Origin: Mytilus edulis
Taxonomy: Eukaryota
NCBI RefSeq assembly: GCF_963676685.1
Contig: NC_092346.1
Coordinates: 21,080,001 to 21,144,000, forward strand
Direction: 5' to 3'
DNA length: 64,000 nucleotides
Numbering within the stretch: position 1 is the first letter of the stretch; the number at the start of each line of letters is the position of its first letter. Made by a program: the position numbers and the translations under genes. Positions 5,575-58,504 of the stretch are shown one piece after another. The notes under the pieces were generated by a model. The model did not search any database, had not been told where the DNA came from, and was given only the letters and a program-made list of their open reading frames with translations.

Positions 5575-8500
5575 CTATCCATCTGTGTTCTGCAGGTTTG
5601 TTAGTAGATCTGCAATTGATATACTCAATTAGAATTTTTTTAAATATGAAACATAATTTGCTTCGTAAATACGGTCACTATACAAAATACGTAAACTATA
5701 ATTGCCTTTTACCATCTGATTCTCTTTATAAGTTCTTCTGTTGAAATTCCGAATTACCTGAGCGAGATAAGATTTTATAAGTTTTCCTTTTTCATAGATC
5801 AATTATGTTCTCTTAAGCCAATCTATTAACATTAATACCGTTTAATTCATTTGATTTGCTTTGATACTACTGGAGATCACCTTTGAATCCAAATGAGTGA
5901 TGCATGTTCAGCTGAAGAGTCATTCCTGTATGGTTGATGAGTGGTACATGTTTAGCGGACGGATAATATACATAAAAAAACAGAGTTCTAAGATACCCCG
6001 TGTTGCGTATATTTTTTCTGTTCATGCACAATAACATTAAAAAAGACCACACAATTACTTTTAATTGTCTTTAATCCTTTTTATGAATATTTTCCAGCAA
6101 TAAAGGATTAAAAGTCTACTTGCAATATTGTCATATAATCTATATTTTTATGGATATAAGTCTTTTATAAATAGTTGATCAGCAATTGTTTGAGCTTGTC
6201 CGAGACTTTGCTAGAAGGTATTTCAGTAAAATGTCCAATATGATCAAACTGGTGTAATTGTGTACCCCCTGGTGTACAATTCGTGTCAGATCATGATATG
6301 TATCAATAAGATATGTTAGGTTTATATCAACATAAGGGACATTTCTGAAAGATTTGTTTTTATTTCACTGCATGGTTTTTAAAACAAAAAACAACACTTG
6401 ATTTTATCGCAAATTGTTTGGTTTTATAATGTTCAATGGTTTTCCATTTTGATATGTAAAAACGTTAACAGGTGATTAAGTCCAATTGATTGCAAACACT
6501 TGAACTTTGATTGGCCTTTGACAAGACAGCTTCATAAGTCTTACTTGTTGCTCCGTTGGCTGCTACCTGTGCTCCTTGTTGCAGGGCTTGGTTTAATAAA
6601 TCTGTTCCTTGTTGTGCAGCAGCCTGTCCCACCTGTTTAAAAGTTTCTCCAAATGTTTCACCCAAAGCATGGAGTTGCACCTTCAGTTGTTCCAAGACAC
6701 CTTGGAATGTATCTTTTAGGAACCGTTTGCTGTAAATTTGTACATCAATTCATCTTTAGACGACATTGGAAAAAAGAATATTTTCTTAACAAAAATGTAC
6801 GATATAGATTTCTGGGTGCAATAAACAGAAAAAAAACAAGTTTCAAACTTCACCTGATACTGTAAACATAGAATGGATTAGGAATTGGGAAAACGAAATG
6901 TATTGTTCAGATAACAAATACCAAACTTTGAATGCTACTACATAAGTGACACCCTTAAGTGTTTCCTACGATGACATAAGATAATTTGAAGTCAATGACA
7001 GGGATTCATACCATAGTGCGGATTTGCAATTGTTTGTCTATTATATAAATCTTATATCCAAAGCCTTGTGAAGATAATTTTCCTTATTCATTGATACAAA
7101 TAAAAAATAAGGATATGTAATTTTATTGCCAACGAGACAACATCAGACCAAACAATGAAGTTGCATATTAAAAAAAACATAGACTTTACAATTAAGTCTT
7201 TGTTCATTTTAAGGTATATTCATGTTAGCCAAAACGAACAAATGCATTGTTCACAGTCCCGATGTCGTCATTAATCATTAATTGAAACGAAATTCCTTAA
7301 TAGAATGGTTATACCTAGTTGAAAATTTAAGTGGAAACGATAAAAGTCCAATAAGTATTAAAGACTCAAAAATAGTCAGAATATATAATTTTGCACACTT
7401 TTCCTTAATTGTTATTTTGTACAGATTTCTAATGATGACACCGCCATACGTTTTCGGTAAACAGGAGGTTTATTTGTGTTTTATGGAAAAAGGTCATTAT
7501 ATTTTGCACTCGAATTTCAATTTACGAAAGGATGAAAACATAGACAGATATAAACTGATATAGCCTCGCGAATATAGCACCGGAGCGGAATATAGTTATC
7601 TATGCAATAGTTATGTTATGTTTATAGTTTACCTTGTTCCATCGGGATTTTGGAGATTTGTTAAAAGACCTAAAATAAAAACAAATTCTGATAACATTTT
7701 AATCATTTTAAGTAACATAATATATAAAAGCGATGCTTAAGATTTGTATGATTAAATGTGTTGATGTGTTCTCTCGTAATTTCTAATGATTTAAAACAAT
7801 TGTTCCAAATGTTGCAAGCCAATTCGACATGCTTTCTGTTTTAAGCGATTTTTTTTTCTGCATACCATTCCTATATTCTATTAATGGCGATCGACACGAC
7901 AGTGCAATATATAAGTAACACAAATAAAAATAGATTATACACAACTGTAAAATTCATAATGAAATGGCAATAAAAAACGCAAACAAAAATAGCTTAGAAA
8001 CGGTACCGGGAATACGAATCCTATTTTATCTGCCGTAATGGCTAATTAAAGGATGTGGTTCACTTTCCGCATCATTTGAAAGGTAAATTTGAGAGATGAT
8101 TTCAATAAGAATAGATACTACAACATTAACGAAAGTCTATAATTCTGGCTTGTGAGAGTATCACTTCAATCTCTACGACACAACCTACGTACATTGTAAA
8201 GTTTTAATTACATTTCGTTTTTAAATTTTCGTTTTCTTTTTTTCCATGATAACAATTCCAATTTCTAGGAACGCATGTCGCGTGAACTGAAATCCTTTTA
8301 ATGGATAAGTTGACACTAAAATTTCATAATAAACCGCAGCAGCTGAGATATTGAATAACTCAGTTCGAACCGAGGAATAGTTTTATATCGTTAGCCTACA
8401 ACATACTTTGCATTTTTCTTCGAGTAATGAAAACCTCCGATTTAAACATTAAACTACTAAACATCCTTATTTTTTAAATTCTTCAACAACAAATTTATAG

Positions 8501-11500
8501 ATGTTAACCTGTTGCTCCATTAGCAGCAAGCTGTGCTCCTTGTTGTAGAGCTTGATTCAAAAGATCTGTTCCTTGTTGTGCAGCAGCCTGTCCCACCTGT
8601 TTAAAAGTTTCTCCAAATGTTTCACCCAAAGCATGGAGTTGCACCTTCAGTTGATCCAAGACACCTTGGAATGTATCTTTTAGGAACCGTTTGCTGTAAA
8701 TTTGTACATCAATTCATCTTTAGACGACATTGGAAAAAAGAATATTTTCTTAACAAAAATGTACGATATAGATTTCTGGGTGCAATAAACAGAAAAAAAC
8801 CAAGTTTCAAACTTCACCTGATACTGTAAACATAGAATGGATTAGGAATTGGGAAAACGAAATGTATTGTTCAGATAACAAATACCAAACTTTGAATGCT
8901 ACCACATAAGTGACACCCTTAAGTGTTTCCTACGATGACATAAGATAATTTGAAGTCAATGACAGGGATTCATACCATAGTGCGGTTTTGCAATTGTTTG
9001 CCTATTATATAAATCTTATATCCAAAGCCTTGTGAAGATAATTTTCCTTATTCATTGATACAAATAAATATAAGGATATGTAATTTTATTGCAACGAGAC
9101 AACATCAGACCAAACAATGAAGTTGCATATTAAAAAAAACATAGACTTTACAATTAAGTCTTTGTTCATTTTAAGGTATATTCATGTTAGCCAAAACGAA
9201 CAAATGCATTGTTCACAGTCCCGATGTCGTCATTAATCATTAATTGAAACGAAATTCCTTAATAGAATGGTTATACCTAGTTGAAAATTTAAGTGGACAC
9301 GATAAAAGTCCAATAAGTATTAAAGACTCAAAAATAGTCAGAATATATAATTTTGCACACTTTTCCTTAATTGTTATTTTGTACAGATTTCTAATGATGA
9401 CACCGCCATACGTTTTCGGTAAACAGGAGGTTTATTTGTGTTTTATGGAAAAAGGTCATTATATTTTGCACTCGAATTTCAATTTACGAAAGGATGAAAA
9501 CATAGACAGATATAAACTGATATAGCCTCGAGAATATAGCACCGGAGCGGAATATAGTTATCTATGCAATAGTTATGTTATGTTTATAATTTACCTTGTT
9601 CCATCGGGATTTTGGAGATTTGTTAAAAGACCTAAAATAAAAACAAATTCTGATAACATTTTAATCATTTTAAGTAACATAATATATAAAAGCGATGCTT
9701 AAGATTTGTATGATTAAATGTGTTGATGTGTTCTCTCGTAATTTCTAATGATTTAAAACAATTGTTCCAAATGTTGCAAGCCAATTCGACATGCTTTCTG
9801 TTTTAAGCGATTTATATTTTTTTTCTGTATACCATTCCTATATTCTATTAATGGCGATCGACACGACAGTGCAATATATAAGTAACACAAATAAAAATAG
9901 ATTATACACAACTGTAAAATTCATAATGAAATGGCAATAAAAACGCAAACAAAAATAGCTTAGAAACGGTACCGGGAATACGGATCCTATTTTATCTGCC
10001 GTAATGGCTAATTAAAGGATGTGGTTCACTTTCCGCATCATTTGAAAGGTAAATTTGAGAGATGATTTCAATAAGAATAGATACTACAACATTAACGGAA
10101 GTCTATAATTCTGGCTTGTGAGAGTATCACTTCAATCTCTACGACACAATCTACGTACATTGTAAAGTTTTAATTACATTTCGTTTTTAAATTTTCGTTT
10201 TTTTTTCCATGATAACAATTCCAATTTCTAGGAACGCATGTCGCGTGAACTGAAATCCTTTTAATGGATAAGTTGACACTAAAATTTCATAATAAACCGC
10301 AGCAGCTGAGATATTGAATAACTCAGTTCGAACCGAGGAATAGTTTTATATCGTTAGCCTACAACATACTTTGCATTTTTCTTCGAGTAATGAAAACCTC
10401 CGATTTAAACATTAAACTACTAAACATCCTTATTTTTTAAATTCTTCAACAACAAATTTATAGATGTTAACCTGTTGCTCCATTAGCAGCAAGCTGTGCT
10501 CCTTGTTGTAGAGCTTGATTCAAAAGATCTGTTCCTTGTTGAGCAGCAACTTGTCCTACTTGCTTGAATGTTTCTTTAAAGGTTTGCCCGAGAGCGTTCA
10601 GCTGTTCATTAAGTTTATCAAGAACTCCCTGAAATGTGTCCTTCAAGAATCTTTTCCTTTAGTAAGAAAAAAAGAAACTTTTATGTTTAATTATGTATTT
10701 CGGCCAAAGACACATGCATGGCCGGAGTGAGAAAATCAAATCCACATAGACCTGTGGGCATTATAATTTATATAAATAGTTACTTTTGATGCAGAGCTGT
10801 CTCATTGGCACTCATACCACATCTTCCTATATCTATATATAACTAAAAATTAGAGTTCATAATAAAAAACCAGAATATCGTGGATATAACAAAGGGGCCA
10901 TAAAACTTGACTCATTGCATAGCTAAAAAAATCATGTTTGAAACATGAAATCCAGTATTTTGAGTATTTGAATTTAAAGTATCGAGTACAATGAACTGAC
11001 TCGATTGTTCTATAACCGATAGGCTGCTAACAAAATTCTATTTTTTAACTCATAATTCCACACAGTTGTAATGTACAAATAAATAAATTATTTATGTATT
11101 TCTTTGTGCTGTGTGTTCATACATTTGTTTGTACTGTATTCCTGTCCCGGAGTGTTGTCATTTTGTCGGCATTTTTAACTTTGCCAAAAAAGTGGGAGGT
11201 TTGGTTAGCCATAACACGGGTTCAACCTACTATTTTCCTTTAAGATGTCTTGTACCAAGTCAGGAATATGGCAGTTGTGATCTACAATCCGTTTATATGT
11301 ATGTTGTTGTTGTTCAGTGTTTCTGTTGTTCCGTTGTTTTCCTCTTATAGTTGATGTGTTCAGATGTGTTTTAGTTTCTCACCAGGATTTGTTTTTGCTT
11401 AATCAAACTATGACTATTGGTCAGCGATATACTACTGTTGCCTTTATTTACTGCGTTAATTTCATTACAATATAAGTGGGTTTTTTACCTTGCATCATCA

Positions 11501-14500
11501 GGATTTTGAAGATTTGTTACCAGATCTGAAATAAGAAATTGTGGTGTTTCAACATTTGAATATTTTTTTCGAAAGGGAAACGTGAGCTGGAAGTCAGATT
11601 GTTATTAGTTTTCGAACTCCTTTAACAACTCAATACCATGTCATAAAAGGTCAATCAAAATTTGAAGGACATTCGATTTTAAGTCATACATTATCATTGT
11701 TAATATGCTTACTCTTTCATCCAATTTGGCTTTCTACCCTTTGTAAGACATTTTTTTAAATTAGATACGTTTCCAATTCTGAATGAATTGAAAATACTGG
11801 AATGCAATTGACACAATGTTCGATGATTTTGAATTTCACATGTAATATATAATATAAGTAAAGCTATAACAAACACAAATCAACGGCTCCAATAATGCAA
11901 AGATGTTGAATACATTTAGATTTTCTTGTTTGTTAGATTTTTTGTTTGGAACGTGTGGTTTTCTCACAAAATAAAAAAAATTATCCTTTTTCTATTATAA
12001 GATTCTTACATGTACGACAAAAAATACCAACTCCAAGGTAAATCAAGGAAGTTGTTAATCTTTTTTTTTGGGGGGGGGGGTGTTTGTTTTTTGTTGGTGT
12101 TTTCTTAGATTATTCTTATTAACTTCTACACTATCATTGAGTTGTTAATCTTTTGTAATCTATAAATTCGTAAATAAAATCATTCAAAGAAGAGTGTAAC
12201 TGAGCTTCAGTTGCATCTTAATTCAGGTGATGAACTTTTGATTTGAAATAAAACTACGAATTCTTTTCATATGATACTACAACATATGAACAAATACTTA
12301 CTTGTAGCTCCATTAGCAGCAAGCTGTGCTCCTTGTTGTAAAGCTTGGTTTAAAAGATCTGTTCCTTGTTGAGCAGCAACTTGTCCTACTTGTTTAAAGG
12401 TTTCTGTAAATGTGTTTCCGAGAGCTTTTAGCTGTTCATTAAGTTTATCAAGAACTCCTTGGAATGTGTCTTTTAAAAATCTTTTCCTGCAGTAATAAAA
12501 TGAAACGTTATATTACAGTAGATATGTGTTATGGACGAAAATATACTGAATTTTTAAAGTTTAGATGTTAGACATTATCAGCCGATTAATACAGAAAAAA
12601 ATACTAATTTACCAAAAAAAAACAACAGGAAAAAGTAATGAGGCAGAAAACTTAATATCACAGTGGCGAATACAACAATTTATAGTATTACAGTTATCCT
12701 TAGAAAGTCACATAATTTCCACCTACCACTTGAAGAAGGAGTGAATGCACATTGTATCGAGGTATATAAACGGATTAGGTCAGCATAGGTCCTATTGCAA
12801 TTTTACAAAAGTTGCTTACAAATATAATTTTTCTAAAAACATAGTATCTGTATGTGTTTAGAATATATTAACTATTTATTATTTAGCATGTAATGCATAC
12901 TATAATACTAGACAATGAAACCAGCTTTTGATGATTTTAGAATTCCTGAGCTTCGGAACCTGATTTAATTTTTTTTTAAATCAATATTTACACTAGATAT
13001 TCAATTTTCAAGAACTACTATGTTTTAAATTATTTCATTGAGAAAATTCGCATAATTTCAGAATGCCGAAAGTAAACTCGATTAGTTGTATTATTTCTAT
13101 GGCAAAGAGTGAAAAACAGTCGTAGTAGTACTGCCATTCATTTTAGTGCAATTTTTCAGTATATAATACTTAATCAAGTTCTCTATAATTTTATAATTAA
13201 CGAAAACATATAATAAACAATTCAACAATTTCATTAAAAAAAAAAGATTGAAAACAGGAAAATGTTTTATTAAAGGGACATCTCTCTTCTAAACATCGAA
13301 ACCACGCCACATCTGTCATTAACAGAGAAACCACGCCCCAACGGTCGTTATCAGACGGAAACCACGCCCATCCGGTCATTATCATGTAAAATTTGTTAAC
13401 GATCGGTTTATGGTACGTTTTGTTCTGTTAATGACTGATTGAGTTTATTACTGAAGAATAAAGAATGTCATGTGGCCCCTTTTTATCCAATAATAGAAGA
13501 TAATAGAAGCGTATTCTTCACCGATATGAAATAATCAACACTGGTTCTATACATTATGATATATTAAAATATTCGTTAAATCGTATGATAGTAAAATGAC
13601 GATTTAAGTATAAAAAGAACAAACGAAGACTAAATAATATAGACAGCAACCAACGACCACAACGGAATTTCATGCTCTTGGCACATTACAACAAATTTGG
13701 CGTAGTTTATGATCTTTGTAAACATTGAACCTCCTCTGAGATGAGACAATAGTGCGACTGCACAAGACAAGAACAAACCATAAATTTTAAAATCATTAAA
13801 ATCTTTACCAAATAGATTGGAACTACACACAAAAAAAATCCATGACAAATTAACGGACTAAACCACAGCGCACCGATTTAAGAGTACTCATAGATGTTTC
13901 AACTTACTCACAGCTAATGATTTAATTACTATGTACGTACTTGCAAAACCAAATATGTTCTCTTATGTACATTTAATGCATCGTTCTAATAAAATACAGC
14001 TAGCCTTTATGATAAAGGACGAACAGCCGCATGACTATGGATGAAATGATGCGAATCAATAATGATAAAAAGTCACCTCCCTTTACTTGTTCACAATGCC
14101 AGATATTTAAAATATCCTTCCTTACAAAATAAACTTTGCAGTATCTATACAATACTGACAAAATTTTATGTTTACCTTGTTCCATCAGGATTTTGGAGAT
14201 TTGTTAGGAGATCTGAAAAAAACAATTTCAGCTGATTAAACACTTTTAAATGTGGACCACAAGAAAGCTATTAAACCAAGAGTTCCAAATGGTGAATGGG
14301 AAATCATCCCTTCGTAAATTTTACGGGCCTCATCACGAACTGGTTGACCGTTATGGAATAACCGTTTCAAAGATGATATCGGATATGTTTCTTATGTCGG
14401 ATCTTTCACCATGAATATGACCTACCGAATAAGACTATTTACCGAGCTCGTAATAACATGAGCAACACAACGGATGTCACGTGTGGAGACCCTTCCGAAG

Positions 14501-17500
14501 CACCTGCGATCACCCAAGGTTTTGGTGGGGTTCGTGTTACTTAGTCTTTAGTTTTCTTTGTTGTATCTTGTATACTATTATTTGTATGTTTGTCTTTTTA
14601 GCCATGGCGTTATCCGTTTATTTTCGATCTATGAGTTTGACTGTCCTTCTGGTATCTTTCGCCCCTCTTTAAAGTAACTTGTTTCGTTGAAAGAGTGAAC
14701 GGCGATGGAGGATTAGGAAATTTAATTTTTGTGTACTTTTTTGTGTATTTCTTTAAATATGATCAAATGTAACAACTTATAATTTAATTAATTGATTTTT
14801 CTTACTTTTGAAAATTGAATAATTTTTTTTAAAACGACAATAATAATAAAATGTTTCCAACAGAAAATTTCTACCAGTTAAGTAAAACAAAGCGGAGAAA
14901 ATAAGCCCATTTTCATATTGTAAGATGCAACTTGAATTGAATAACATTATCAATCAAACATTCCTACTAAGTTGTTTAGGTTTAAAGTGTTAGATGTTAA
15001 TAGTAGCTGAAAGCTGCATGGAATCTCTTATAAATGCATTAGAAACTCTACGTTTTCTTGAAGATAATATAAATGCACAATATGCTTCTGCTTATTGCCC
15101 ATGTTTCAAGCATCAAGATAAGTTTATGAAAATTCCTGGAACAGATATTTGAACAAATTATTAAAGGGTTATATGTTATCCTAAACATATCGATTGTATG
15201 AAACATTGCAATATCCCAAGTTGTTATTAGATCCTGAATATTTCTCTGGTATTGAACTTCTTATCAAATAAGATATTTACTTGTAGCTCCATTAGCAGCA
15301 AGCTGTGCTCCTTGTTGTAAAGCTTGGTTTAACAGATCGGTTCCTGATTGTGCAGCAACTTGTCCAACTTGTTTAAATGTTTCTTTAAATGTTTGTCCAA
15401 GAGCATTTAGTTGTTCATTAAGCTTGTCTAAAACGCCTTGGAAAGTGTCTTTTAAAAATCTTTTCCTGTTGAGAAAATACAAATGTTCTTAAAGCCATGA
15501 TTAACATCTGTATCGGCGAACAATATTTTGCATTCGAGCGTGAAGATATAGCCAACCAATAAGCAGTTATATCAATGGAGATACTCTTTCAATAAAAAGA
15601 TTTTTAAAAATCATCACTGATAGTTCACCCATTCAAAATAAAAATGCCAGCTCACTTACTTGAGCGTAATGATATAGCCAACCAATTAGCAGTTATATCA
15701 ATGAAGATACTTTTTTAATTAAAATAATTTAAAAAAATCATCACTGATAGTTCACCAATTCAAAATATAAATGCCAACAATCTTACTTAACATGATTGGC
15801 TGTGTACTTCACTTGACAATGGAATTGGTCGAGAATTGACAAAATAATGATTTTTTTTTTTTTAGCAACTTTATTGTATACAAAATTAACTCTTTTGTAA
15901 CGTGAGAACTACCTTGTTCCGTCTGTGACTGCTGCATGTTGAAGGTTAGTAAGAAGATCTGGAAGGAATAATTTTAAAATTAAAATTATGTCATCTGATT
16001 ATGTTCATGATGTGAACAAGCCCTATGTAACCATCCTATATCATCTTATAATGTTTTTTCAAGTACAAGAGGTATGTGAATATCTTTCAGACAAAAACAT
16101 ATTTGTTATATATAGCAGTAGCTTATAAAACGAACGAAACTAGCTGTTCAGTCCTGTGAATTAATGTTAATTTTGAATCCAGGAAATTTTAGTTCGTTTC
16201 ACGTGATGTTTTTTGTTGTTGATTATTTCGAAAATTCATTATAGATTTTCATCTTTATTTTATGAGTTGAGTTTCAATTAGCATGATATATTGAACTTCT
16301 GTTTGGTTTTTTTAATCAAAAATATACATCAGAGGATTTTAATGTCCGGACATATCAATCTCGAAGAGATTAAGTGTACCAAGTCAGGAATGTAATAGTT
16401 GTCCATTTGTTTGATATGTTTGAGCTTTTAATGTTGCAATTTGTAGGGACTTTCCGTTTTGAATTTTCCTCGGATTTCAATATTTTTGTGATTTTACTTT
16501 TTGCAAGATTATATTTTTAAATGAACGTATTTTTTCTTATCATTTGTATCTTAAAGTGCTGATTCACGACAAATTGCAAACTGTAATCTACATTATATGA
16601 TTGTACTTAGTTTAACTTTTGTTTGCTTCTTAAAGTTTGAGAATTGCATTATATTTAATCGTTTGTACATTTGAGAAAAAGTTTTACTTGTTGCTCCATT
16701 AGCTGCTAACTGTGTTCCTTGTGTCAGGGCTTGGTTTAATAAGTCTGTTCCTTGTTGTGCAGCAGCCTGTCCCACCTGCTTAAAAGTTTCTCCAAAAGTT
16801 TCACCCAAAGCATGGAGTTGTACCTTCAGTTGATCCAAGACACCTTGAAATGTATCTTTCAAGAACCTTTTTCTGTAATTTTTAAAAAAACAATTTATCT
16901 TAAGAATACATTTGCAAAACAAAACTGCACAATATAGATTTGTGTGTGCACTTTACATATTTCTTGTTTACTGTAAAATAAATCGGAACAGAAAAAATAA
17001 ACTTCAATGGTGATTACAAAAACAAATGTTGAATGCTACTCCACGAGTGTCACCCATAATGTATTTCATACAGTAAAATAAGATAGGTTAATGTCAATAA
17101 TAAGGATTCATACCACAGCGCAGAATAAGAATTGTTTGTCTATTATAAATCTGATATCAAAACCCTCCTTAAGAAAATGCACCTAATGCATTCAAAACAA
17201 TATGAAATGGGGACATATGTTTTGATAACCATTTAAGAAGATGTACGTTTCAAAAATGAAGAAATAGACATAATCTTGTTCCGTGAAATATACATTACCT
17301 TGTTCCGTCGGGATTTTGAAGGTTAGTCAGAAGATCTAAATGGCGAAAAAAGAAATTGGTAATTACATCTTTTAAAATATTTTATATTGCCATTTTTATA
17401 TCGGATTCGTAATGTAAGTAAATAAAATATTATTAAAATTTATTTGAAATGCTTTGGTTAAAAAACTTCACAACGTCATAGATCGAAATTAAGCAAGATT

Positions 17501-20500
17501 TTTTATATTGACCGTCAGAGTACATTTTTAAAAATAGAAACATGTAGCGTCAATATACTTCAAAATAAAACAAGGCTTTGGATACATGAAATAAACTTTG
17601 AAACACGTGATCGTAATGACCAAAGAAAAAAGTAGAATGCTACACCATATGTAATATTGTTTCATATCATTTCATAGATAGACTTTTTAGTTATGTTATA
17701 TGAATGTTTAAACGTTTTCTTATGATGTCAACTGTACGAGTCATTTTGATAACACAATTTAATGCTGACGCTTACTTGTTGCCCCATTAGCGGCTACTTG
17801 TGCTCCTTGTTGTAAAGCTTGGTTCAACAGATCTGTTCCTTGTTGGGCAGCAACTTGTCCTACTTGTTTGAATGTTTCTTTGAATGTTTGTCCAAGAGCA
17901 GTGAGTTGTTCATTAAGCTTGTCCAAAACGCCTTGGAATGTGTCTTTCAAGAATCTTTTGCTGGAAAAAGTAATCCATAATCTTTAGTGTATAGCATAGT
18001 AAATGAAATACCAAGTAGCATCATTGGATAGAAAACGATACAAAGGACAATATAAAAGTATAGATCAATTCAACAAATTCGTTTATAATAACTGTTTTTA
18101 TCCGTGATCTGTTTAATTTGTTATGTGGAATAAAAATTATGTTCTTGAAGATCCTAAATGAACTACCATAGATGTTTAAAGCTTTAAATTACCTCATTTT
18201 CCGAACAAAATATTTACAATTCACGTTTGCGTAAGGATATCTTAATTTTATTCTACAATATGAAAATAAGGAGATGTGGTTTGATTGCAAATGAGACAAT
18301 TGCCCACCACAGTTCGAATGTAAGCAATTATATCCAACCGTACGGCCTTCATTGATAAGAAAACGTCTTTCTTATAATTTCATATAATTAAACCCTAATT
18401 TGATTCCTGTCATATTTTAAAACATTGAAAAAAGTTTCCCGTATATCAAATAAGTCACACTTATAAAACATTGAGAGACCAAACAATCTGTTTTAAAATA
18501 AGTCTTTTCGTGAAAAACACAAAGACGGCCTTATATAATTTAGATTTTTTTTTAAAGTTACTACATTATGTTGTCATAAAGGCGAAATATACTAGTATTG
18601 AGGATAAAAGGAGAGTATTACCTTGCTGTTGTGCCATCAGGGTGGGCAAGATTAGTCAACAAATCTGAAAAAGAATATACGTCTGCTAATAGAAATATGT
18701 AATGGTAATAATGAATAAAAAAATGACATTTCAATAATACGTAATAAAAAAAAATGCACAAGCTAACCAGCAAGAAAAGGAAACACAAAACAATAAACTG
18801 GAACACAATTACAAAATTACAACATGGTACACACTTTCGAGTAAAAATATAAATATATAAGTTTTATACTATACATAAATTTCAACTTATGTGACAATCA
18901 ATCATTGTTAAGTTGGAATAACAGAGCATATAAGGTCTGTCAAAGCGATTCCAATGATAATGCTCAAAGGAAAGTGGGATATACAATTCACTAATAGACG
19001 AACTTAAGTTTTGGTTCCGTTCACCCAAAGTAGATTCAAAACAAAACAGGTTCTTTTTTTAAGAAATAAAGTAGCGGTCGCTCTAGGAATATGTTCCTTG
19101 TGGAGCAGCAAGTTGTCCTACTTGTTTCTTCTTTTTTCAGTGTACCGTCAAATTTTCAAACGTTTTTGTATTTCACTATGTTCAGCAGTTATAGTTTCTA
19201 TTTCAAGCATTTTTAGATTTAAAATAATTTGTCCGAAGATTTGTATAATTGCCATCTTGGTTTTTTTTTATTTCGTCGCCCGTGAACTATGGAACAACAA
19301 ATTCGAAAATATATTGTTTGGCCTTTTTATGTTTAGTTCATGTCTAACAGAACGTTAATCTCACATCTCATTTTACTCATGTCTATAACTAAAGAGAGTA
19401 AATTATTAACAGTGTTTCAAAATGATTTCTTTTTCATAAAATAACCACGGTAATGTCAGGATATTGCAGAAAAAGAATGATTATCTTCATAGCATTATTT
19501 TGTAAAAGAAAATTGTGTTCTTTGGCTACAAGAGAGATTATATAAGATATCCTGTAGTCGAAGTTCTTTCCTAGATTTAACTTCATGAAATCAGGCAATG
19601 CACTTCACATAACATACGCCCTATTCTTGGCGGCAAAATCTTTAAATATTTGTTCACGTTATGTGTTCTCGTTATTTGTTTTAAATACTCATCTCAACCT
19701 ACAAACATATGTGGTATGCAATAAAACCAGATTTCTTTGTTGTTTCAGAACACATGATCAACTCAACTCGATCTCTGCTTACTGATCATTGCATTCATTT
19801 TTAAAGTTGTATGAATTTTAAATAGGCATTTGGAAATTTAATGACAAAGTAATAGATTGTGAGTTGCAATAAAAGTTCACTACTTTCTGTAACTCAGAAA
19901 CCTTATTCGTACGGATTGGATCGTAAAATAGACAATTTGTTTATATTTAAACATGCGAACAATGAAAAACCAAACGTTATCAAACACACATACTAAAAGC
20001 TCCTTTCACTGCAAGATTTGTTCCTTGTTGTAAAGCTTGGTGTAACAAATCTGTTCCTTGCTGTGCAGCAGCTTGTCCAACTTGTTTGAAGGTTTCATTG
20101 AATGTTCCACCTAATGCATTCAACTGAAGTTTCAATTGTGCCAATATGTGCTGTACGTCATCCTTCAGAAATCTCTTGCTAAAGAACATAGTTTCAGATT
20201 AAGTATAAACAACTTCTTTCGACAATATAGATACAACAATATTCAAAGTTGCATGTCTGACCATTAATGTTAATTTGTAAATTTTATCTATGAAAAGATT
20301 TACCGAGATAATTGGCAACAAATGTCGTTTTACTTTTACTTTGGAGTAACCAAATATGATAAAGCAGTATTTTTCAAGAAAAAAGAAACAAAGGATTCAA
20401 AACCAATATCTAATAAATAGGCCTTTGAAACATTTGTTTACCAAACATTAAAACAATAATGCAAAATATTGCTATTTGCAACGCATGATAGCATGAACAA

Positions 20501-21384
20501 AATGAAACAGTAGAAAATCTAAAACACATTATTTATTACCTTGGATCTGGTTCTGAGGTGTGTTGAAGATTTGTTAGAAGATCTGAAAAAACGAAATGTG
20601 TTTAAAAAATATATTATTGCAAGGCGTCAATGCATTAATCTATGCAAATAAGTCTTTTCCAAGAACACAGATAAGAAGCACCGATATAGAAAAACCAACA
20701 ATATTGGCACTGGCTTTGTTTTAATCACTTACTTGTAGCCCCAGCTGCAGCAAGTTGTGTTGCTTGTTGTAAAGCCTGACTCAGTAAATCTGATCCAGAC
20801 TGTGCAGCAGCTTGTCCAACTTGTTTAAATGTATCTGTAAATGTGCCTCCCAAGGCATGGAGTTGAACCTTCAGTTGATCTAATACACCCTGGAGTGTGT
20901 CTTTCAGGAATCTCTCCCTGAATAAGAATTACAGGTAAGGTAAATCTGTTCACTCATGACATGAAAGGGGAAGGGTTGTTGGAGAAGATAGTAGATTAAT
21001 TAAAAACAAATCTGAATGGAAAGAATAAAATAAGTTAACAACGTTTTAGGGGATCTTCAACGTCATCGGTTTTTCACAATCTTCCCAAGTAAATAGCCTC
21101 GTCTATTATCTATTCTTATGTATTGATTTTGATAGGCCTTGTATGGATTTGGGCCGAGTTAAAGCATTACACTTTGCATAGATACTTATATAGTCTTGAC
21201 GATTGTTGAAGATCGTATCTAGACCTCGAGATGTCTTTAGGTTTTAAATTTAATTATGATTAATAATGCAAATGTCTTATGAACAAAAGAAGAATGTATA
21301 TATCGTTGTAAACACTTACTCCTTTGTCGGTCTGGCATCAGCTGCCACCAGAAGGCAAGCCGTTAACAAGACTAGGATCTTCAT
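5575..21384 (-). CDS. Secreted tandem-repeat polyprotein precursor (693 aa): signal peptide + 9 KR-delimited amphipathic-helix modules; 19 coding exons
   Basis: Coding exons on the minus strand, all internal junctions GT-AG: 21384-21320 (MKILVLLTACLLVAADARPTK); 185-nt repeat exons 20917-20733, 20178-19994, 17960-17776, 16872-16688, 15465-15281, 12486-12302, 10656-10472, 8693-8509, 6729-6545; linker exons 20582-20540, 18664-18622, 17335-17299, 15958-15913, 14212-14176, 11525-11489, 9631-9595, 7669-7633; terminal exon 5609-5575 (NLLTNLQNTDG-stop). Intron phases alternate 2/1 throughout. Total 2082 nt, in frame with no internal stop. Candidate AATAAA at 5400-5395. Confidence 0.92.
6600..10541. 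repeat. Recent ~1963-bp tandem duplication of one repeat-exon/linker-exon module with its introns
   Basis: 6600-8563 and 8564-10526 are nearly identical, including intron sequence (ORF pairs 6653/8617 and 7282/9244). Junctions fall in the shared 15-mer ATCTGTTCCTTGTTG at 6600, 8564 and 10527. Confidence 0.95.
14259..14670 (+). mobile_element. 3' fragment of a retroelement (Penelope-like RT C-terminus plus UTR) in a polyprotein intron
   Basis: Translates as TRKLLNQEFQMVNGKSSLRKFYGPHHELVDRYGI, resembling the C-terminal motif of PLE-type RT elements common in molluscs. Class assignment is from recall. Confidence 0.45.
19089..19127 (-). pseudogene. Decayed fragment of a repeat exon (pseudo-exon) in a polyprotein intron
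   Basis: 36/39 nt match to the KQVGQVAAQQGTD-coding part of exon 12486-12302; flanking exon sequence and splice sites are lost. Confidence 0.7.
21320..21384 (-). CDS. First coding exon of the polyprotein: signal peptide (predicted cleavage ADA|RP after residue 17)
   Basis: ATG at 21384 just after an AG acceptor; MK, hydrophobic core ILVLLTACLLV, then A-x-A; donor GTAAGT, phase 2, joins in frame to 20917 (KEER|FLKD). Confidence 0.88.
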
Positions 21385-33985: not shown

Positions 33986-34636
33986 ATTTTCTGTAATGGC
34001 CCTGTTTTTCTGTAATGGCCCTGTTTTTTTCTGTAATGGCCCTGTTTTTCTGTAATGGCCCTGTTTTTCTGTAATGGCCCTGTTTTTTTCTGTAATGGCC
34101 CTGTTTTTCTGTAATGACCCTGTATTAATGCCCAGTTGTCTGTTTTAAACCCAGTTAAGGTTTTTAATAAAGTTCATAAAATTAAGTTTTAAAGAGTATA
34201 TTAATATCTTTTTGTATTTTGTTTAATTTAGTAACCAGTAACAAACATTAAAGAGTTATACAGAACCATATAAAGGGATCACTGTTCATCCTGTTTTTCA
34301 ACACATAACTTCTTTCAACTTTATATCTTGGATATTTGGTATATTTTAAGCTTTATCATGGTGAAGTACAAATTATTTTTTTTCAAACTAAACTGGCATT
34401 AAAAGAGTAAGAGAGCACATCAAGTTCGTAGCAACACATATACTTTTGTTCAGTTGGTTAATAAATGTATACAGAAATGGGTGTTTTTATAATGGCCCTG
34501 TTATATGTCCTCAGTCAGTAATAATGGCCTCGGATGTCTGTAATGGACCTCGGCGTTGCCTCGGGCCATTACAGACTTCCTCCACCATTATTACAGACCT
34601 TGGACATATAACAGGGCCATTATAAAAACACCCATT
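33986..34636. repeat. Minisatellite (TTTTTCTGTAATGGCCCTG x~7) plus a ~160-bp terminal hairpin sharing the TAATGGCCCTG motif
   Basis: Tandem units at 33986-34123; inverted repeat AATGGGTGTTTTTATAATGGCCCTGTTATATGTCC ... GGACATATAACAGGGCCATTATAAAAACACCCATT at ~34477-34636. Confidence 0.7.
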
Positions 34637-35563
34637 CATTAATACTATAATATAAACTGTGTCACGTCCTTGAAATGAAAACGAGAAAAACATAATATCT
34701 TAAATACATGTAATGTTAATAATCGTGTGATATTCATTAATACCAAAATTCTTTTTTAAAGTTCCTCTTTGGTTTTTTCGGAGAATAATAATAAATTCGT
34801 CGAATTATTCCTTATTGAGAAAAAAAACATCTGATTAAGGAAGGACATTTAATTTATAAATAAATGTTGAAAATACTTCATAAAGCATTGGGTAAGTGTA
34901 GTTAACTAAAAGGCAAAAGTTAGTTATCAATTTTATGTTAACAGTTATATCATTTCACATCATAATCTGTTGTTTCGTGGGGAAAAAAGGTTAATTGAAT
35001 TATTTAGAAGTTGTAAAAAACGTTAAATTTTAATTTGAGTGACCACAAATTAAAAAGAGATATCATTGTAAGATCAAAGATAAAATTCGATAAGTTGAAT
35101 ATAATTATATGATAATATCATTTAAAATGAAAATAATATATACATTAAGGACAGTATTAAACCATCAAACCAACGATAGAGAGAAAAAGAATAAAAATAA
35201 ACTCAAAACGGTCATGACAATAAAACAATGTTTGCTCAAATACCAGACGGTTTGTATTTAAAAGAAATCTGTATATTCTAATGACCTAAAAATGTTCAGT
35301 GTTTTTTGATATTTTGTTTGAGAAAAAAAGGAGATGTATTTCCTTTTACACTTGTATTGTTCAAGTTGAAAAGATTTCAAGTAAAGACGGATTTCTTTTA
35401 TCAACATTTTCCAAGAAATCAGGTGTATATGATAAAAATAGCTGTACATGTAGTCATGCTTACAACATTCAAAAAGTAGAGCACAAGATGAAATTCTGAA
35501 TTATGTCTAACTAATTAACAATTTCAGTCTTTTTTAAGCAGGTATTCTGAGTAGAATGTTGAA

Positions 35564-35956
35564 ATGGGAAATTGTTTAAAATGCCATCTAGTTCGTGACT
35601 ATTCAGAAGCCAGTTTTCCGACTGAAAACATGCGTTCGGAACTGTTCTTATCGGAGGGAAGTTTGGTGAGCTGTGATTCAAATTGTTCCCAGAGTACTTT
35701 AAATGAACCATCAATGTTTTCTTTTAAAAGTGGGACAAAGACCAATAATGTGTACTTCGAAAATGACGTATGTATCATTTGTTTAGAAACATACGATGAT
35801 CAAGTACACAATCCATTGCTTTTGCCTTGTGGACACATGTTCTGTGCAGTGTGTATTAGAATGATGGCTAAGAAAAGAAGATTCAAATCGATCAGATGTC
35901 CAGTGGATAGAGAGAAACATCATATTACTAAAGATGTTTCTTGCGCAGGTATATAA
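35564..35956 (+). CDS. Small RING-finger protein (130 aa, C3HC3D RING-HC variant), putative E3 ubiquitin ligase with N-terminal MGNC acylation motif
   Basis: CIIC-x15-CGH-x2-CAVC-x14-CPVD; single coding exon preceded by a T-rich acceptor (~35531-35541); AATAAA at 35989-35994. Confidence 0.8.
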   Translation: MGNCLKCHLVRDYSEASFPTENMRSELFLSEGSLVSCDSNCSQSTLNEPSMFSFKSGTKTNNVYFENDVCIICLETYDDQVHNPLLLPCGHMFCAVCIRMMAKKRRFKSIRCPVDREKHHITKDVSCAGI

Positions 35957-39077: not shown

Positions 39078-42000
39078 TCAAAATCTGCTGTGTCTACCTA
39101 TTTCACAATTACAGTTCGGACAAACATGTACAACATCCTTGGCACTTTTAATACAAAACGGAACGGCGCAGCATCCTAAGAAAAATCTGAAATATAATAA
39201 AATGAAAATAAAATTAGAATCGGTAAAATTGACGATGGTACAACTGTCAACCAGAATCAAACGACGTGTAGGTAAGCAATTATAATTCACCATATGACCT
39301 TCAACAACGAGAAAGCCCAGACCGTATAGTCTGGGCCACAGAATGTCAAATCGTCGTCCTGCCACTGCTTGTGGACGTTTCGTCCCCGAGGGTATCACCA
39401 GCCCAGTAGTCAACACTTCGGTGTTGACATGAATATCAATAATGTGGTCATTTTTATAAATTTCCTGTTTATAAAACTTTGAATTTTTCGAAAAACTAAG
39501 GATTTTCTTATCCAAGGCATAGATTACCTTAGACGTATTTGGCATAACTTTTTAGAATTTTGGATTTTAAATGCTCTTCAAATTTGTTCTTGTTTGGCTT
39601 TATAAATATTTCGATATGAGCGTCACTGATGAGTCTTATGTAGACGAAACGCGCGTCTGGCGTACTAAATTATAATCCTGGTACCTTTGATAACTATTTA
39701 CACCACTGGGCCGATGCCACTGCTGGTGGACGTTTCGTCCCCGAGGGTATCACCAGCCCAGTAGTCAACACTTCGGTGTTGACATGAATATCAATAATGT
39801 GGTCATTTTTATAAATTTCCTGTTTATAAAACTTTGAATTTTTCGAAAAACTAAGGATTTTCTTATCCCAGGCATAGATTACCTTAGACGTAATGGCACA
39901 ACTTTTTAGAATTTTGGATTTTAAATGCTCTTCAACTTTGTTCTTGTTTGGCTTTATAAATATTTCGATATGAGCGTCACTGATGAGTCTTATGTAGACG
40001 AAACGCGCGTCTGGCGTACTAAATTATAATCCTGGTACCTTTGATAACTATTTACACCACTGGGCCGATGCCACTGCTGGTGGACGTTTCGTCCCCGAGG
40101 GTATCGCCAGCCCAGTAGTCAACACTTCGGTGTTGACATGAATATCAATAATGTGGTCATTTTTATAAATTTCCTGTTTATAAAACTTTGAATTTTTCGA
40201 AAAACTAAGGATTTTCTTATCCCATGCATAGATTACCTTGGACGTATTTGGCACAACTTTTTAGAATTTTGGATTTTAAATGCTCTTCAACTTTGTTCTT
40301 GTTTGGCTTTATAAATATTTCGATATGAGCGTCACTGATGAGTCTTATGTAGACGAAACGTGCGTCTGGCGTACTAAATTATAATCCTGGTACCTTTGAT
40401 AACTATTCTATCGAATGCTGGAGGTCATGAGTCAAATATTGGCCAAGTAAAAAATAAAAAGACTTGAACATTGGTATTTGCTGCTTCTCCAAAGTGTTAA
40501 AAAATATGTATGAATGCACTGAAGCTTCAGTAAAATATAAAGAAAACATATCTGATTCAGTATTTATAGATAGAGGCTTGAAACAGGGTGACAGCCTCAG
40601 CCCAAATCTTTTTAATATTTATATAAATGACCTTCCTGAAATTTTTGATAGTGACTGTAAACCAGTAAATCTCAATAACATGTCATTAAGTTGTCTTATG
40701 TTTGCCGTTGATTTACTTTTATTGTCTGAAAGTGCAGAGGGTTTACAGAAGTCATTAGAGAAATTAAGTAACTATTGTAAAAAATGGCAGTTGTCAATCA
40801 ACATAAATAAAACTAAAGTGATAGTATTTCAACAAAAAAAACATACCATACACTAAAGCAGAGTTTACTTTGGATGGTTATAAATTAGAAAAAGTATTAA
40901 AATATAAATATTTAGGTAATATTATAGAGGCTTCTGGTAAATTCCATACATCACATATGGAACTATCAAAAAAAGGCACAAAAGTTCTATTCAGTTTGTT
41001 TAAATATTTGAATAATATAGAAAATATACCTATAAATATACATAAAAAAATGTTTGAATCTTTAATAAAACCTATTTTAATGTATAACTCAGAAATTTGG
41101 TATATGGACTACTATGAAAAAATATTAAGATCTCAGAGTAGAGCAATAAATAATCATAAAGATTTTGATTTATTAACATCAATTGATAATAGCTTTATTG
41201 AAAAGGTGAATTTAAAATTTTGCAAATTAATTCTAGGTTTAAGTAAAAAAGCAGTAAACATTGCATCAAGGGCAGAGTTAGGACAATATCCAATAGATGT
41301 ATATGTAAAGGTTCAAGCACTAAAATATATGGCAAGAGTATCTAACACAGAAATTAATCCGTTGTTATATGATGCATATTGCACAGCTAAACTGTTGGAT
41401 GAAACAGGAACCTATTCTTGGTATACCTTTGTAAAAAATATAACCCATGAAAATAATTTAAATATATCTGATATACAAAATATTGACTTTATAAAAGAAA
41501 AATATAAAATGAATAAACACATGAAAGAGATTGTGCAAGAAAACTATAAAAAGCTGTTCTTTAAAAAATTAAATTCTTTAACAGAAAATAATAAATTATT
41601 TATCTATAGTAAATTCAAAAAGAAATATGAAACTGAGCCTTATTTACTTAAAGAGAATAACTTTGAAATAAGGAAAAAATTCACTAAATTAAGGGTGAGT
41701 GACCATATTTTGGAAATTGAAAGGGGTAGATACAAAAATATAAAAAGAGAAGAACGTTTATGTCAACATTGTTGTCTAAATGAAATAGACGATGAAGAGC
41801 ATTTTTTATTTACATGTACAAAAAATAAAGATTTGAGATTTGAATTTTTGCAAAAAGTTAAAAATATCTATTCCGATATAGATAATATGGATAATTTGGA
41901 TAAATTGGTTTTATGTCTTTCTTGTCCGTCAATTATGCAGTATGCTGCTTCATTTGTTGAAAAGTCATGGTCACTGAGGAGGGTGGACTCAACAACTGCA

Positions 42001-45000
42001 TAATAGATACATATATGTATATAATGTTTGGTTCTTTTGTTGGTTTTTTTTTGTATGATGTATTGTAAAATTACTATGTTGATTTATGTATGCCTTCAAC
42101 CCATATGGGTACAAATGTGCATTATTTCCGATGTATCTTACCCAAAAGACGCAAGCATGATACAAGCAACCCATGTAAATGGACCAGCTTTATGTTCTGT
42201 GTTGGTTACTACTTTCGTGTGACATTCTGGACAATCTGTTGCAAATGGTATCTCGCTTTCTGCGGCATATTCTGGTGGGTATCCTTTATTTGTTGGTTGA
42301 TTACCTGCAACAATATAGTTAACAAATGTATGTATTTGCCAATAACCTTTTACAGGTTCACTCGCCTCGTTATAGTATTTTGTAGGCGGTTGAAAGCAAA
42401 CACCAATCAACCAATAATTTTACAGGTTTTTTTCAAAGTTATTTTATGCTTCTGGGATAAGACGTAACAGGAAAATGAATTGCATAAATATACACAAATT
42501 TCATAAACATTGTAGATTTTCTTTTTACTTCCTGCTGATTTCTAAGAACATTTTTATTTTTAAAAGGTAGAGAAAACATCACAATATGCTTCCGATTCAG
42601 ATTATCTCAATGGCAGTAATGTATAACATAAATTGAAAAGTCGTCGATCAAATATGAAAGAAGGTATAATAAGGCCACCATTATTGGCACTTTCGACACG
42701 AAAATTAAAAATGTCTTTATTCATATTTTAAAATACTAGCAAACACCAGCGACATCGCGGATTTATGACTAAATTAAAGTACCAACGACTTATGTTAATG
42801 CTGAAATTTTAGTACGCAAAGCGTATAAGACACCGATAACGGTCACCAAATTTTGATATGTTCTCAAACATTTGCGTTTTCTGTGGCAAAATATTGTTTT
42901 AAAGAAGTACATTTATACGTCATTTCACAAATATTTCCGACTTTGTATGGTTACAGAAGAGTAGCGACTAAATGAATATCAAATATTATATATATTTCGT
43001 TTGTTGTTTTGTACATAATTCGTTTCTCTAGTTTTTCTCGTTTGAACTGCTGTTTGAACCAGTTATAATTCTTATATGAGGGCCCTCGTGGGGTTTTTGA
43101 TTATGTGATTACTTGGCCGTTTTTTTAATGATTATTTGATTATTAAGCCAAATATTTCATGATTATTTGATTACCTAGGACTGTATTTTTAGTTTATGAT
43201 TATTTGATTACTAAAGATAAGCAAATATTTAATGATTATGTGATTATATTGGCAAAAAAATGGTGATTATGTGATTACTAGGACCCCCCCCCCCCCCATA
43301 AGGGGCCTCTTATATGATTTGCATATTAGGGAATACGTTGATAGGCTTGGTCGAGAGAACTTCCGGTAGTTGATCTTGACGTTCAGTGGTTATTTTCGAT
43401 AGACGACGTTGACCGAACTTCTTTTCGTAACAAGTGTCAAGGTAAACAAGCAGCGGCGATAATAACACCGACGTCAACAAAATTTATTTTCACTGCACGT
43501 TAATCGTTGACACCTTAGTGAGACCTATATTAACTTATAATTCTGAGATAACATATTTGGACGCATATATAACATATTTCAAAGCTAAAAAAAGAGCTTT
43601 GGTTTCTGGAAAAATTGTGGACCCATTTAATTTTATTGACAAGACTCTAATAGAAAACTTGCATCTTGGTTATTGCAAGTTTACCCTTGGCACTAACAAG
43701 AGTGCCTCAAATTTTGGTACAAGGAACGAATTGGGAAGACTGCCTATTGAATGTCATATAAAAACCCAAACTATTATGTATTTAGCAAGGCTTTTCACCT
43801 CAAATTTGAATCCCTTATTACATGAATCTTTTCAATTAACTAAAACTTTGGATTCTAGTGGCTCCTATTCATGGTTCACTTTTGCAAAAGATATTCTTTC
43901 TGAATCTAACATTGATATAAATAGACTAAAAACCTGTAATAATTTAAAACAATTAAAAAATATTAAAAGCTATATTAAACCCCAAATAAACTCATATTAC
44001 AACAACCTGTTGATGGATAAGTTGAAATCTATTGACGATAAAAGTAAATTAAATTTTTATAAAGGACTTGAGCCAAATCTATTGATCAAACCTTACCTCT
44101 ATAACCCAAACTTTGAATTTAGAAAATTAATTACAAAACTTAGAATCAGTGACCATTCATTACTAATTGAAAAAGGAAGGCATTTTAAAATTCCTCGCGA
44201 AGAGAGACTTTGCAAAAAATGCAAAGTACTAGATGATGAGAAACATTTTTTAATAAATTGTTCTCATAATTCAAATATTAGATTAACATATTTTAATTGC
44301 ATTAACAGAGAAAGTAATTCATTTGCTAATCTCACTGACAATGACAAAGTTATATATATATACTTAACCCATCAACACCAACACAAGTGAATAAACTAGG
44401 ATCCTTTATAAAAAAAAGTCAATGGAACTGAGGACAGGGGACCCTTTAATATTTACCTGAATTTGTGTATATATATTGAGTTACTTAGTTATTGTCTTTA
44501 TTTGTTTTTGTTGTTGTTATATGTCACAAACTGTATAGTTTATATGGCAATAAAATATTGAATTGAAAAATTGAATTGTTAAATAAAATAATACACAAAA
44601 ACATTCGTTTAAGAGTTTTTGCAGTTATAACTTTTTATCAGATAGCAAATTTCATTGAGAACATATTTTTGCGTTGATCAACAAATATATTCATGCGCCA
44701 GACATAAATATACAATTTACGTGTGATATAGGTAACGAGTGTTGAAAATATATATTCCTTATCTCCAATTTTAGAGAATTAAAAGGATTAAACGCCTTTT
44801 TCAAGGAATTTCTTAGTGTATAAACTGGACCAAGTCTATACACCAATAAATTCCTTTAAAAAAGCGTTTTATCCTATAATAAATATAGCCTAATCGGTAA
44901 GCATAAAAACCCGATTTTTTTCATTACGTGAATGACCCAACAAATCTCTCCGTCTTAGCTGTTTTGCGTTTTTATTTGTGTTTGTTGTTATTAGTGTTAT

Positions 45001-56823: not shown

Positions 56824-56831
56824 AGAATGGG

Positions 56832-58387: not shown

Positions 58388-58504
58388 ATGTTTGATATAT
58401 TTGTTCTCTGTGTTTCTAGAGAGAAAGCAAAAGCCGAACCATACCTTATATATGAGCTAACAGGAAACTTTGTTGGGTTATTATTTGGCGTTACCAAAAG
58501 CAGA

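What the first reader, a model, noticed from the sequence alone, without database searches (positions are those of the whole stretch)
5575..20917. Frame-symmetric two-exon cassette: one peptide = one 185-nt exon + one micro-exon, with the cleavage site built at the splice junction
Seen: all nine repeat exons are exactly 185 nt (phase 2 in, phase 1 out) and the linkers are 37, 43 or 46 nt (phase 1 in, phase 2 out). Each pair is therefore 222, 228 or 231 nt, always a multiple of 3. The P3 codon is split AG|N, so the first base of the next exon decides SKR versus RKR. Length variation is confined to the linker exons (NPDGT, HTSEPDP, HPDGTTA, HAAVTDGT, NPDDA), while helix length is invariant. Inference: modules can be gained, lost or skipped in pairs without frameshift, which permits copy-number and splice-isoform variation in the peptide mix.
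Basis: partly seen in the sequence, partly recalled or inferred. Interest (0 to 1): 0.7.

Follow-up and report, generated by a model that had tools for sequence, protein, structure and literature searches.

The report
Mussel apolipoprotein-like helix polyprotein
This mussel gene strings nine near-identical two-exon units into one protein that is likely secreted and cut into fat-binding helical peptides, probably for the gut; the unit number differs between mussel records, likely through DNA crossovers rather than exon skipping, and the neat reading-frame symmetry is an automatic result of repetition.

Summary
The exon anatomy is real. Nine 185-nt exons (phase 2→1) and eight 37/43/46-nt exons (1→2) form a 693-aa ORF with a signal-like start. 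RNA contigs show 15 of 18 introns exactly. The reading needs correcting. Frame symmetry follows automatically from tandem repetition. KR lies inside the 185-nt exon; only P3 is split. Module 8 arose by a crossover inside a helix exon. Unit number varies between Mytilus records (7, 7, 8, 9), and one DNA run suggests about three copies of the youngest unit. No module skipping was shown; one minor alternative last exon was. The product is the more interesting part. Each unit is an anionic, roughly 65-residue amphipathic helix with apolipoprotein class-A charge placement. It belongs to an unnamed mollusc family that also occurs in scallops, abalone, unionids and pearl oyster, with a paralog in this genome. 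It is abundant in one gut-labelled RNA run and absent from four other RNA runs. Best reading: a convertase-cut polyprotein of lipid-binding digestive peptides; cleavage and function are untested.

The parts
21320..21384 (-). Coding part of the signal exon: signal-peptide-like start plus short pro-piece, phase 2 out; an AG one base before the ATG implies an upstream non-coding exon
   Evidence: joint to H1 in RNA contig
20733..20917 (-). Helix exon H1 (185 nt; site is EER, no KR)
20540..20582 (-). Linker exon L1 (43 nt)
19994..20178 (-). Helix exon H2
19092..19127 (-). Decayed fragment of a helix exon inside the H2-L2 intron (34 of 36 nt match)
18622..18664 (-). Linker exon L2 (43 nt)
17776..17960 (-). 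Helix exon H3
17299..17335 (-). Linker exon L3 (37 nt)
16688..16872 (-). Helix exon H4
15913..15958 (-). Linker exon L4 (46 nt)
15281..15465 (-). Helix exon H5
14176..14212 (-). Linker exon L5 (37 nt)
12302..12486 (-). Helix exon H6
11489..11525 (-). Linker exon L6 (37 nt)
10472..10656 (-). Helix exon H7
9595..9631 (-). Linker exon L7 (37 nt)
8509..8693 (-). Helix exon H8, a chimera: H9-type at 27 of 28 diagnostic sites in nt 1-115, H7-type at 12 of 12 in nt 131-185; crossover interval 8564-8578
7633..7669 (-). Linker exon L8 (37 nt, identical to L7)
6545..6729 (-). Helix exon H9
6543..10661 (.). Recent tandem duplication, unit about 1,963 bp (intron-linker-intron plus a chimeric helix exon); copies differ by 13 substitutions and 5 indels
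   Evidence: DNA depth
5867..5925 (-). Minor alternative last exon (acceptor at 5925; 19-residue tail to stop)
   Evidence: joint 5924/6544 at depth 127.6 in run X5; translation
5575..5609 (-). Main terminal coding piece (35 nt with stop)
   Evidence: run X2 table 5c

Best explanation
The gene encodes a 693-residue tandem polyprotein that is likely secreted and likely cut by a dibasic convertase into nine 7.4-7.8 kDa anionic peptides, each predicted to be one long amphipathic helix that would coat lipid surfaces in or from the digestive system, like a small exchangeable apolipoprotein. Shown: exon structure, splicing, the ORF, KR in front of 8 of 9 units, the helix periodicity and charge pattern, differing unit numbers among records, and a chimeric exon 8. 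Inferred: secretion, cleavage after KR with trimming of the basic residues, lipid binding, and digestive origin. Unit number changes by unequal crossing-over between the helix exons, the only long homologous stretches since introns have diverged; this keeps the frame by itself. The 1/2 intron phases are inherited packaging: the paralog's first helix exon is also followed by a phase-1 intron and a phase 1→2 exon.
For: ORF and sites. Junctions. Amphipathicity: hydrophobic period 96-97 degrees over 65 residues; 0 of 1000 shuffles reach the moment in 4 of 4 units tested; K/R 29 of 32 at the interface and D/E 42 of 43 on the polar centre (the nine units are not independent). Ten segments from more distant relatives and the paralog: 96-98 degrees, 0 of 300 shuffles each, K/R 24 of 30, D/E 34 of 39. 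AlphaFold2 with 17 rows gives one 58-residue helix, pLDDT 91. Pfam Apolipoprotein is the top hit, though weak, for two unionid relatives (E 3e-5). Net charge -1 to -3, no Cys, Trp or Tyr in the units. Depth about 1,050-1,390 in the gut-labelled RNA run X5, and no exon coverage in 4 of 4 raw-read RNA runs of unknown tissue. In Mytilisepta three digestive-gland-specific top transcripts called 'probable apolipoprotein' carry the same two weak Pfam labels as the unionid relatives (PMC5549309). Crossover. The unduplicated state exists in VDI38122. DNA run X15: duplicated-unit contig depth 71 against 21-29 for seven flanking contigs, and that sequence lies nowhere else in the genome.
Against: No peptide, cleavage or lipid-binding data. 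Pfam Apolipoprotein scores (16-24 bits) are far below the 90-bit cut-off, and many unrelated helical families score as well or better on the Mytilus proteins. No apolipoprotein appears in four PDB sequence searches or the Foldseek search. Tissue rests on one run label; the Mytilisepta transcripts could not be compared by sequence. 0 of 9 sites match the furin-type K/R-X-K/R-R motif, and unit 1 has no KR. Contig depth is a rough measure of copy number, and RNA depth ratios are mixed: X5 2.2x, X1 0.8x with rows hidden, X2 1.1-1.6x.
Confidence: 0.5

Rival explanations
1. The released helices are membrane-active defence peptides of the gut mucosa, amplified apidaecin-style.
For: The architecture matches apidaecin: exon-encoded units, haplotypes with 4-11 units (PMC1847501). 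One relative has a weak Pfam 'Frog antimicrobial peptide' hit (E 0.009, below cut-off). The abalone relative has Gly-Lys-Arg after many units, an amidation signal by recalled knowledge.
Against: The peptides are anionic. Units are under purifying selection (pN/pS about 0.2, uncorrected) and nearly invariant between species (unit 2 helix differs at 1 of 59 residues from M. californianus), unlike apidaecin's high variation. There is one locus with this architecture in the genome.
Confidence: 0.2
2. One reading: the two-exon cassette is a working splice switch, and pairs are skipped in transcripts to tune the peptide mix.
For: Pair skipping would keep the frame. RefSeq isoform pairs in scallop and abalone differ by exactly one unit (35 and 72 aa). 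The M. galloprovincialis record is named isoform X3. One X2 joint links an H3-like end to L8.
Against: All other displayed joints are consecutive, and one contig runs H2-H5 unskipped. The X2 joint fits an allele equally well. The 7-unit make-up of XP_076100055 recurs in VDI32509 from another assembly, which points to a genomic haplotype. Gene-model isoforms in near-identical repeats can be mapping artefacts. Skipping one exon alone shifts the frame (185 = 2 mod 3; linkers = 1 mod 3), so two exons would have to be skipped together.
Confidence: 0.15
3. The precursor stays largely uncut, or the pieces self-assemble, and serve as a structural or surfactant component of mucus or the crystalline style rather than as lipid carriers.
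For: No furin-type site; very high expression; Gln/Ala/Gly-rich helices; the single-sequence model shows long helices broken only at the linkers (pLDDT 52).
Against: KR or RR is kept between helical pieces in scallop, abalone, unionids and the paralog. Class-A charge placement is what lipid-surface helices show (recalled).
Confidence: 0.12
4. The ninth unit is an assembly artefact (two haplotypes placed in tandem) and the true number is eight.
For: The two copies are about 99% alike. The X15 contig is a mosaic of letters from both copies, so some differences may be polishing errors.
Against: X15 depth over the unit is 2.8 times the flanks; X5 junction depth for that unit is 2.2 times the preceding junction; the sequence is not a dispersed repeat.
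Confidence: 0.08

Closest known systems
Apidaecin multipeptide precursor of the honey bee (PMC1847501, passages read)
   Same: Conserved N-terminus followed by exon-encoded repeated peptides; unit number and sequence differ between haplotypes (4-11); splice variation was proposed there too.
   Different: One exon per 28-aa proline-rich peptide there; here two exons per 70-74-aa anionic helix, strongly conserved. No sequence relation is claimed.
Nematode polyprotein allergens / tandemly repetitive polyproteins (PMC3079579, Introduction and passages read)
   Same: Tandem near-identical helical units cut at basic sites; made in the intestine; lipid-binding products.
   Different: NPA units fold into seven helices with cavities and are cut at K/R-X-K/R-R. 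[quoted passage not shown] Here each unit is one long helix, sites are plain KR, and every unit carries two introns of 150-1,689 nt.
Exchangeable apolipoproteins (apoA-I, A-II, C-I; Pfam PF01442; class A helix definition recalled)
   Same: Amphipathic helix near 3/11 pitch, Lys at the interface, Asp/Glu at the polar centre; secreted; small apoC-like size.
   Different: Pfam scores are far below cut-off and there is no PDB hit. No Pro-punctuated 22-mers in the Mytilus helix. Made as a convertase-cut polyprotein, which I do not recall for apolipoproteins. Likely convergence.
Mytilisepta virgata 'probable apolipoprotein' digestive-gland transcripts (PMC5549309, passages and supplement rows read)
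   Same: Mussel, no sequence homologues, apolipoprotein-like by HHpred, 6,230-14,067 TPM in digestive gland; same weak Pfam labels (Apolipoprotein, Baculo_PEP_C) as the unionid members of this family.
   Different: No sequences appeared in the supplement rows I saw, so identity is untested. The passages read say nothing of a polyprotein, cleavage or exon structure.
Progranulin (recalled, not checked here) and multi-MgCRP-I (PMC4558851, passages read)
   Same: Progranulin: repeated modules each spread over two exons and released by proteolysis. Multi-MgCRP-I: mussel multi-module precursors.
   Different: Both are cysteine-rich; multi-MgCRP-I modules sit in a single exon.

Membership tests
Tandemly repetitive polyproteins (NPA/filaggrin type) | Large precursor of similar or identical units | tested here: met
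   Nine units, 69-97% identical to H3
Tandemly repetitive polyproteins (NPA/filaggrin type) | Regularly spaced basic cleavage motifs | tested here: met
   KR before 8 of 9 units
Tandemly repetitive polyproteins (NPA/filaggrin type) | Actual cleavage into units | not testable with these tools
   Needs peptidomics; the genome holds subtilase-family genes (11 matches), not typed further
Nematode polyprotein allergens | K/R-X-K/R-R sites; few or no introns in the repeats; seven-helix unit | tested here: not met
   0 of 9 sites; two introns per unit; one helix
Exchangeable apolipoproteins (PF01442) | Class A amphipathic helix with about 3/11 periodicity | tested here: met
Exchangeable apolipoproteins (PF01442) | Sequence homology above the family cut-off | tested here: not met
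   16-24 bits against 90; no PDB apolipoprotein hit
Exchangeable apolipoproteins (PF01442) | Reversible binding to lipid particles | not testable with these tools
   Needs vesicle-clearance or lipoprotein proteomics
Cationic helical antimicrobial peptides | Net positive charge | tested here: not met
   -1 to -3 for 9 of 9 units
Alternatively spliced cassette arrays | Transcripts of one haplotype that skip units | tested here: inconclusive
   No displayed joint requires skipping; rows hidden and contigs only; 4 of 4 raw-read runs lack the transcript

The most novel reading that the evidence does not exclude
Molluscs have an undescribed family of convertase-cut, apolipoprotein-like helices, and Mytilus mass-produces one as a 7-10-unit polyprotein that acts as a protein emulsifier for dietary fat (a peptide stand-in for bile salts). 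The dose per transcript would be set by an intron-containing coding tandem array that expands and contracts by crossover inside exons.
Probability: 0.3. Interest if true: 0.75.

Novelty: new variant of a known kind. Interest (0 to 1): 0.48.

Why it matters
The exon-phase pattern itself is ordinary. The gene is not: it is an unnamed, very highly expressed tandem polyprotein. The paper on nematode polyproteins calls this kind rare and nearly intron-free, yet this one carries two introns per unit. If the units bind lipid, this gives a concrete, synthesisable candidate for how bivalves emulsify or export dietary fat, and possibly fat-soluble algal toxins and pollutants. It also gives an allelic series of 7 to about 10 units for testing why proteins are made as repeats.

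Tried and rejected
Pfam on single exons: nothing above cut-off. On whole precursors many unrelated helical families score through summed repeats; rejected as non-specific. ESM Atlas: no usable hit. Single-sequence AlphaFold2 of P0003: pLDDT 52, not used for a fold search. Foldseek of the single-helix model: 0 matches. PDB sequence searches: best hit FD15 (8ugc) at E 0.004, no apolipoprotein. Four-copy complex prediction: no verdict, score 0.01; not used either way. Papers: 0 hits for six Mytilus accessions, 0 for six scallop and abalone accessions, 0 for three topic searches; two searches listed nothing on this family by title and abstract start. The library lacks most subscription journals, so absence from print is not shown. 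The original apidaecin paper was not held. PMC4203926 lists an 'Unknown, 2,151 bp' top digestive-gland transcript, but its supplement gave no sequences, so no link is claimed. An in-exon AG six bases into 7 of 9 helix exons would delete the dibasic site in frame; it is not used in any displayed joint. Raw-read runs X21-X24 had no exon coverage and could not test skipping. Small-share runs that I did not lay (X3, X4, X6-X14) are no evidence. The module tree has weak support and was used only as a check on the nearest-neighbour table.
Full report
1. Observation. The minus strand carries a signal exon (21384-21320), nine 185-nt exons, eight linker exons of 37, 43 or 46 nt and a 35-nt terminal piece. 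All 18 introns are GT-AG and the join is a 2,082-nt ORF of 693 residues. RNA contigs from three runs give 15 of 18 introns at the exact coordinates. Two more cannot be separated from their duplicates, and the last is seen with two differing letters. One run also shows a minor last exon at 5925, at depth 128 against 1,050-1,390 for the upstream junctions, giving a 19-residue tail. The organism is a Mytilus by inference: the helices of units 1-3 are identical to M. galloprovincialis records.

2. Is the symmetry more than chance? It is not chance, but it is forced. If a repeat unit stays in an ORF and its introns sit at homologous places, the exon lengths in one unit must add to a multiple of three. 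It is therefore no sign of a designed cassette. The phases look inherited. A paralog elsewhere on the same contig (G000:C3:97652827 down) is predicted to have signal plus helix in one exon, then a phase-1 intron, a 79-nt phase 1→2 exon and four more exons. It gives 305 residues with both KR sites inside exons (my exon calls, not RNA-checked). In the window the KR codons are inside the helix exon and only P3 is split. Four sites read SKR, four RKR, and the first unit has EER. At the site after L4 one M. galloprovincialis record has S where the window and another record have R, so P3 looks tolerant, not regulatory.

3. How modules change in number. H8 is a chimera: H9-type at 27 of 28 diagnostic sites in its first 115 nt and H7-type at 12 of 12 in its last 55. 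It is the junction of a 1,963-bp tandem duplication whose copies differ by 13 substitutions and 5 indels. That is an unequal crossover inside the helix exons, which keeps frame whatever the phases. VDI38122 has the unduplicated order and also lacks unit 5. XP_076100055 and VDI32509 share a different ending. M. californianus has eight units. The counts are 7, 7, 8 and 9, with one partial record; all database records are gene models. In DNA run X15 the contig over the duplicated unit has depth 71 against 20.6-28.9 for the seven other listed contigs, about three copies, and the sequence occurs only at these two places in the assembly. The tool warns that depth is no copy number, so this is an indication. 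RNA junction depth for that unit is 2.2 times the preceding junction in X5, 0.8 in X1 (rows hidden) and 1.1 in X2, or 1.6 if a variant contig is added. A decayed helix-exon fragment lies at 19092-19127.

4. Skipping. Every displayed joint with exact window exons is consecutive except one X2 joint (7667-17774), which an allele explains equally well. X2 also holds linker variants absent from the window (table 5c). One X5 contig runs H2 to H5 in order. 43 and 114 joint rows were not displayed, contigs drop rare forms, and the four raw-read runs had no exon coverage. RefSeq isoform pairs in Pecten and Haliotis differ by one whole unit, which keeps skipping possible but may be a modelling artefact. 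Skipping is not shown and not excluded.

5. The product. Cutting after KR and trimming would give nine peptides of 70-74 residues, 7.4-7.8 kDa, net charge -1 to -3, with no Cys, Trp or Tyr. Hydrophobic residues keep a 96-97 degree period over 65 residues, running into the LLTNLQ part of the linker exon. 0 of 1000 shuffles match in the four units tested. K/R sit at the interface (29 of 32) and D/E at the polar centre (42 of 43). Ten segments from more distant relatives and the paralog repeat this (24 of 30; 34 of 39). This is the class A pattern of exchangeable apolipoproteins (definition recalled). AlphaFold2 gives one continuous helix at pLDDT 91. Selection among units is purifying (pN/pS 0.20 helix, 0.15 LLTNLQ part, 0.29 for four short tails; uncorrected; H8 and L8 left out).

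6. The family. A profile search of 1.84 billion representatives found 20 proteins at E up to 0.001. The named ones are all molluscan and uncharacterised or hypothetical: Pecten and Mizuhopecten polyproteins, a Haliotis polyprotein with many Gly-Lys-Arg sites, unionid proteins of about 275 residues in three pieces with consecutive locus tags, and Pinctada. One further partial record labelled Acinetobacter is 80% identical to a unionid protein and is probably a mislabelled host transcript. One unionid entry carries an automatic UniRef name 'Apolipoprotein A-IV'. Pfam Apolipoprotein is the top but sub-threshold hit for two unionid members, and PDB searches find no apolipoprotein. It works like one by helix type; membership is not met.

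7. Where it is made. Depth is high in contigs of three RNA runs, one labelled invertebrate gut metagenome, and nil in four raw-read RNA runs of unstated tissue. PMC5549309 (passages; supplement rows) lists three digestive-gland-specific 'probable apolipoprotein' transcripts in Mytilisepta with weak Pfam labels Apolipoprotein or Baculo_PEP_C. These are the two top labels of the unionid members. That is a lead; no sequences were seen.

8. Mechanism, committed. The precursor enters the secretory path (inferred from the hydrophobic start). A dibasic convertase cuts it and a carboxypeptidase trims the basic residues (inferred; 0 of 9 sites are furin-type). The released helices lie flat on lipid surfaces to emulsify or carry dietary fat (inferred). 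One transcript gives 7-10 copies, with the number set by crossover between helix exons (shown for unit 8). Probability about 0.5 for the whole; defence peptide 0.2; active splice cassette 0.15; uncut or structural 0.12.

9. Known versus new. Apidaecin already shows exon-encoded units with haplotype-variable number and a proposal of splice variation (PMC1847501, passages). Nematode polyprotein allergens show lipid-binding helical units from a tandem precursor, and that paper calls the kind rare and nearly intron-free (PMC3079579, Introduction). Multi-MgCRP-I are mussel multi-module precursors in one exon (PMC4558851, passages). The unnamed mollusc family of convertase-cut class A helices, and its intron-rich polyprotein form, was not found in ten literature searches of this library. 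Subscription journals were not searched, and supplements were read for two papers only; either may hold it. Verdict: new variant of a known kind, interest 0.48.

Noticed in passing
G000:C3:97648761-97652827 (-), loci L010/L021: Paralog with six predicted coding exons, 305 aa, three helical pieces separated by two KR sites; resembles the unionid and Pinctada proteins and may be the ancestral form of the family.
   Followed up: partly
window 5867-5925 (-): Minor alternative terminal exon used in RNA run X5; replaces the end of the last helix with a 19-residue tail.
   Followed up: partly
window, first 6 nt of H1-H7: An AG six bases into 7 of 9 helix exons could act as an in-frame acceptor that removes the dibasic site; not used in displayed joints.
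   Followed up: partly
window 19092-19127 (-): Decayed helix-exon fragment in the H2-L2 intron, a possible lost or aborted module.
   Followed up: partly
P0036/P0111 (Haliotis rufescens LOC124112657): Relative with about ten units, many ending in Gly-Lys-Arg, so its helices may be amidated.
   Followed up: no
window 54139-54519 (-): Pro-rich open stretch ending in a Cys-x-x-Cys motif, resembling a LITAF-domain gene exon (label recalled).
   Followed up: no
window 35555-35953 (+): RING-finger-like open stretch (label recalled).
   Followed up: no
window 40458-44387 (+) and 57012-58415 (-): Fragments resembling LINE reverse transcriptase (label recalled).
   Followed up: no
window 56490-56872; 39185-40548; 33987-34144: Tandem repeats with periods of 48, about 355 and 19-21 nt.
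   Followed up: no
P0124: A partial protein filed as Acinetobacter nosocomialis is 80% identical to a freshwater-mussel family member; probably host contamination.
   Followed up: no
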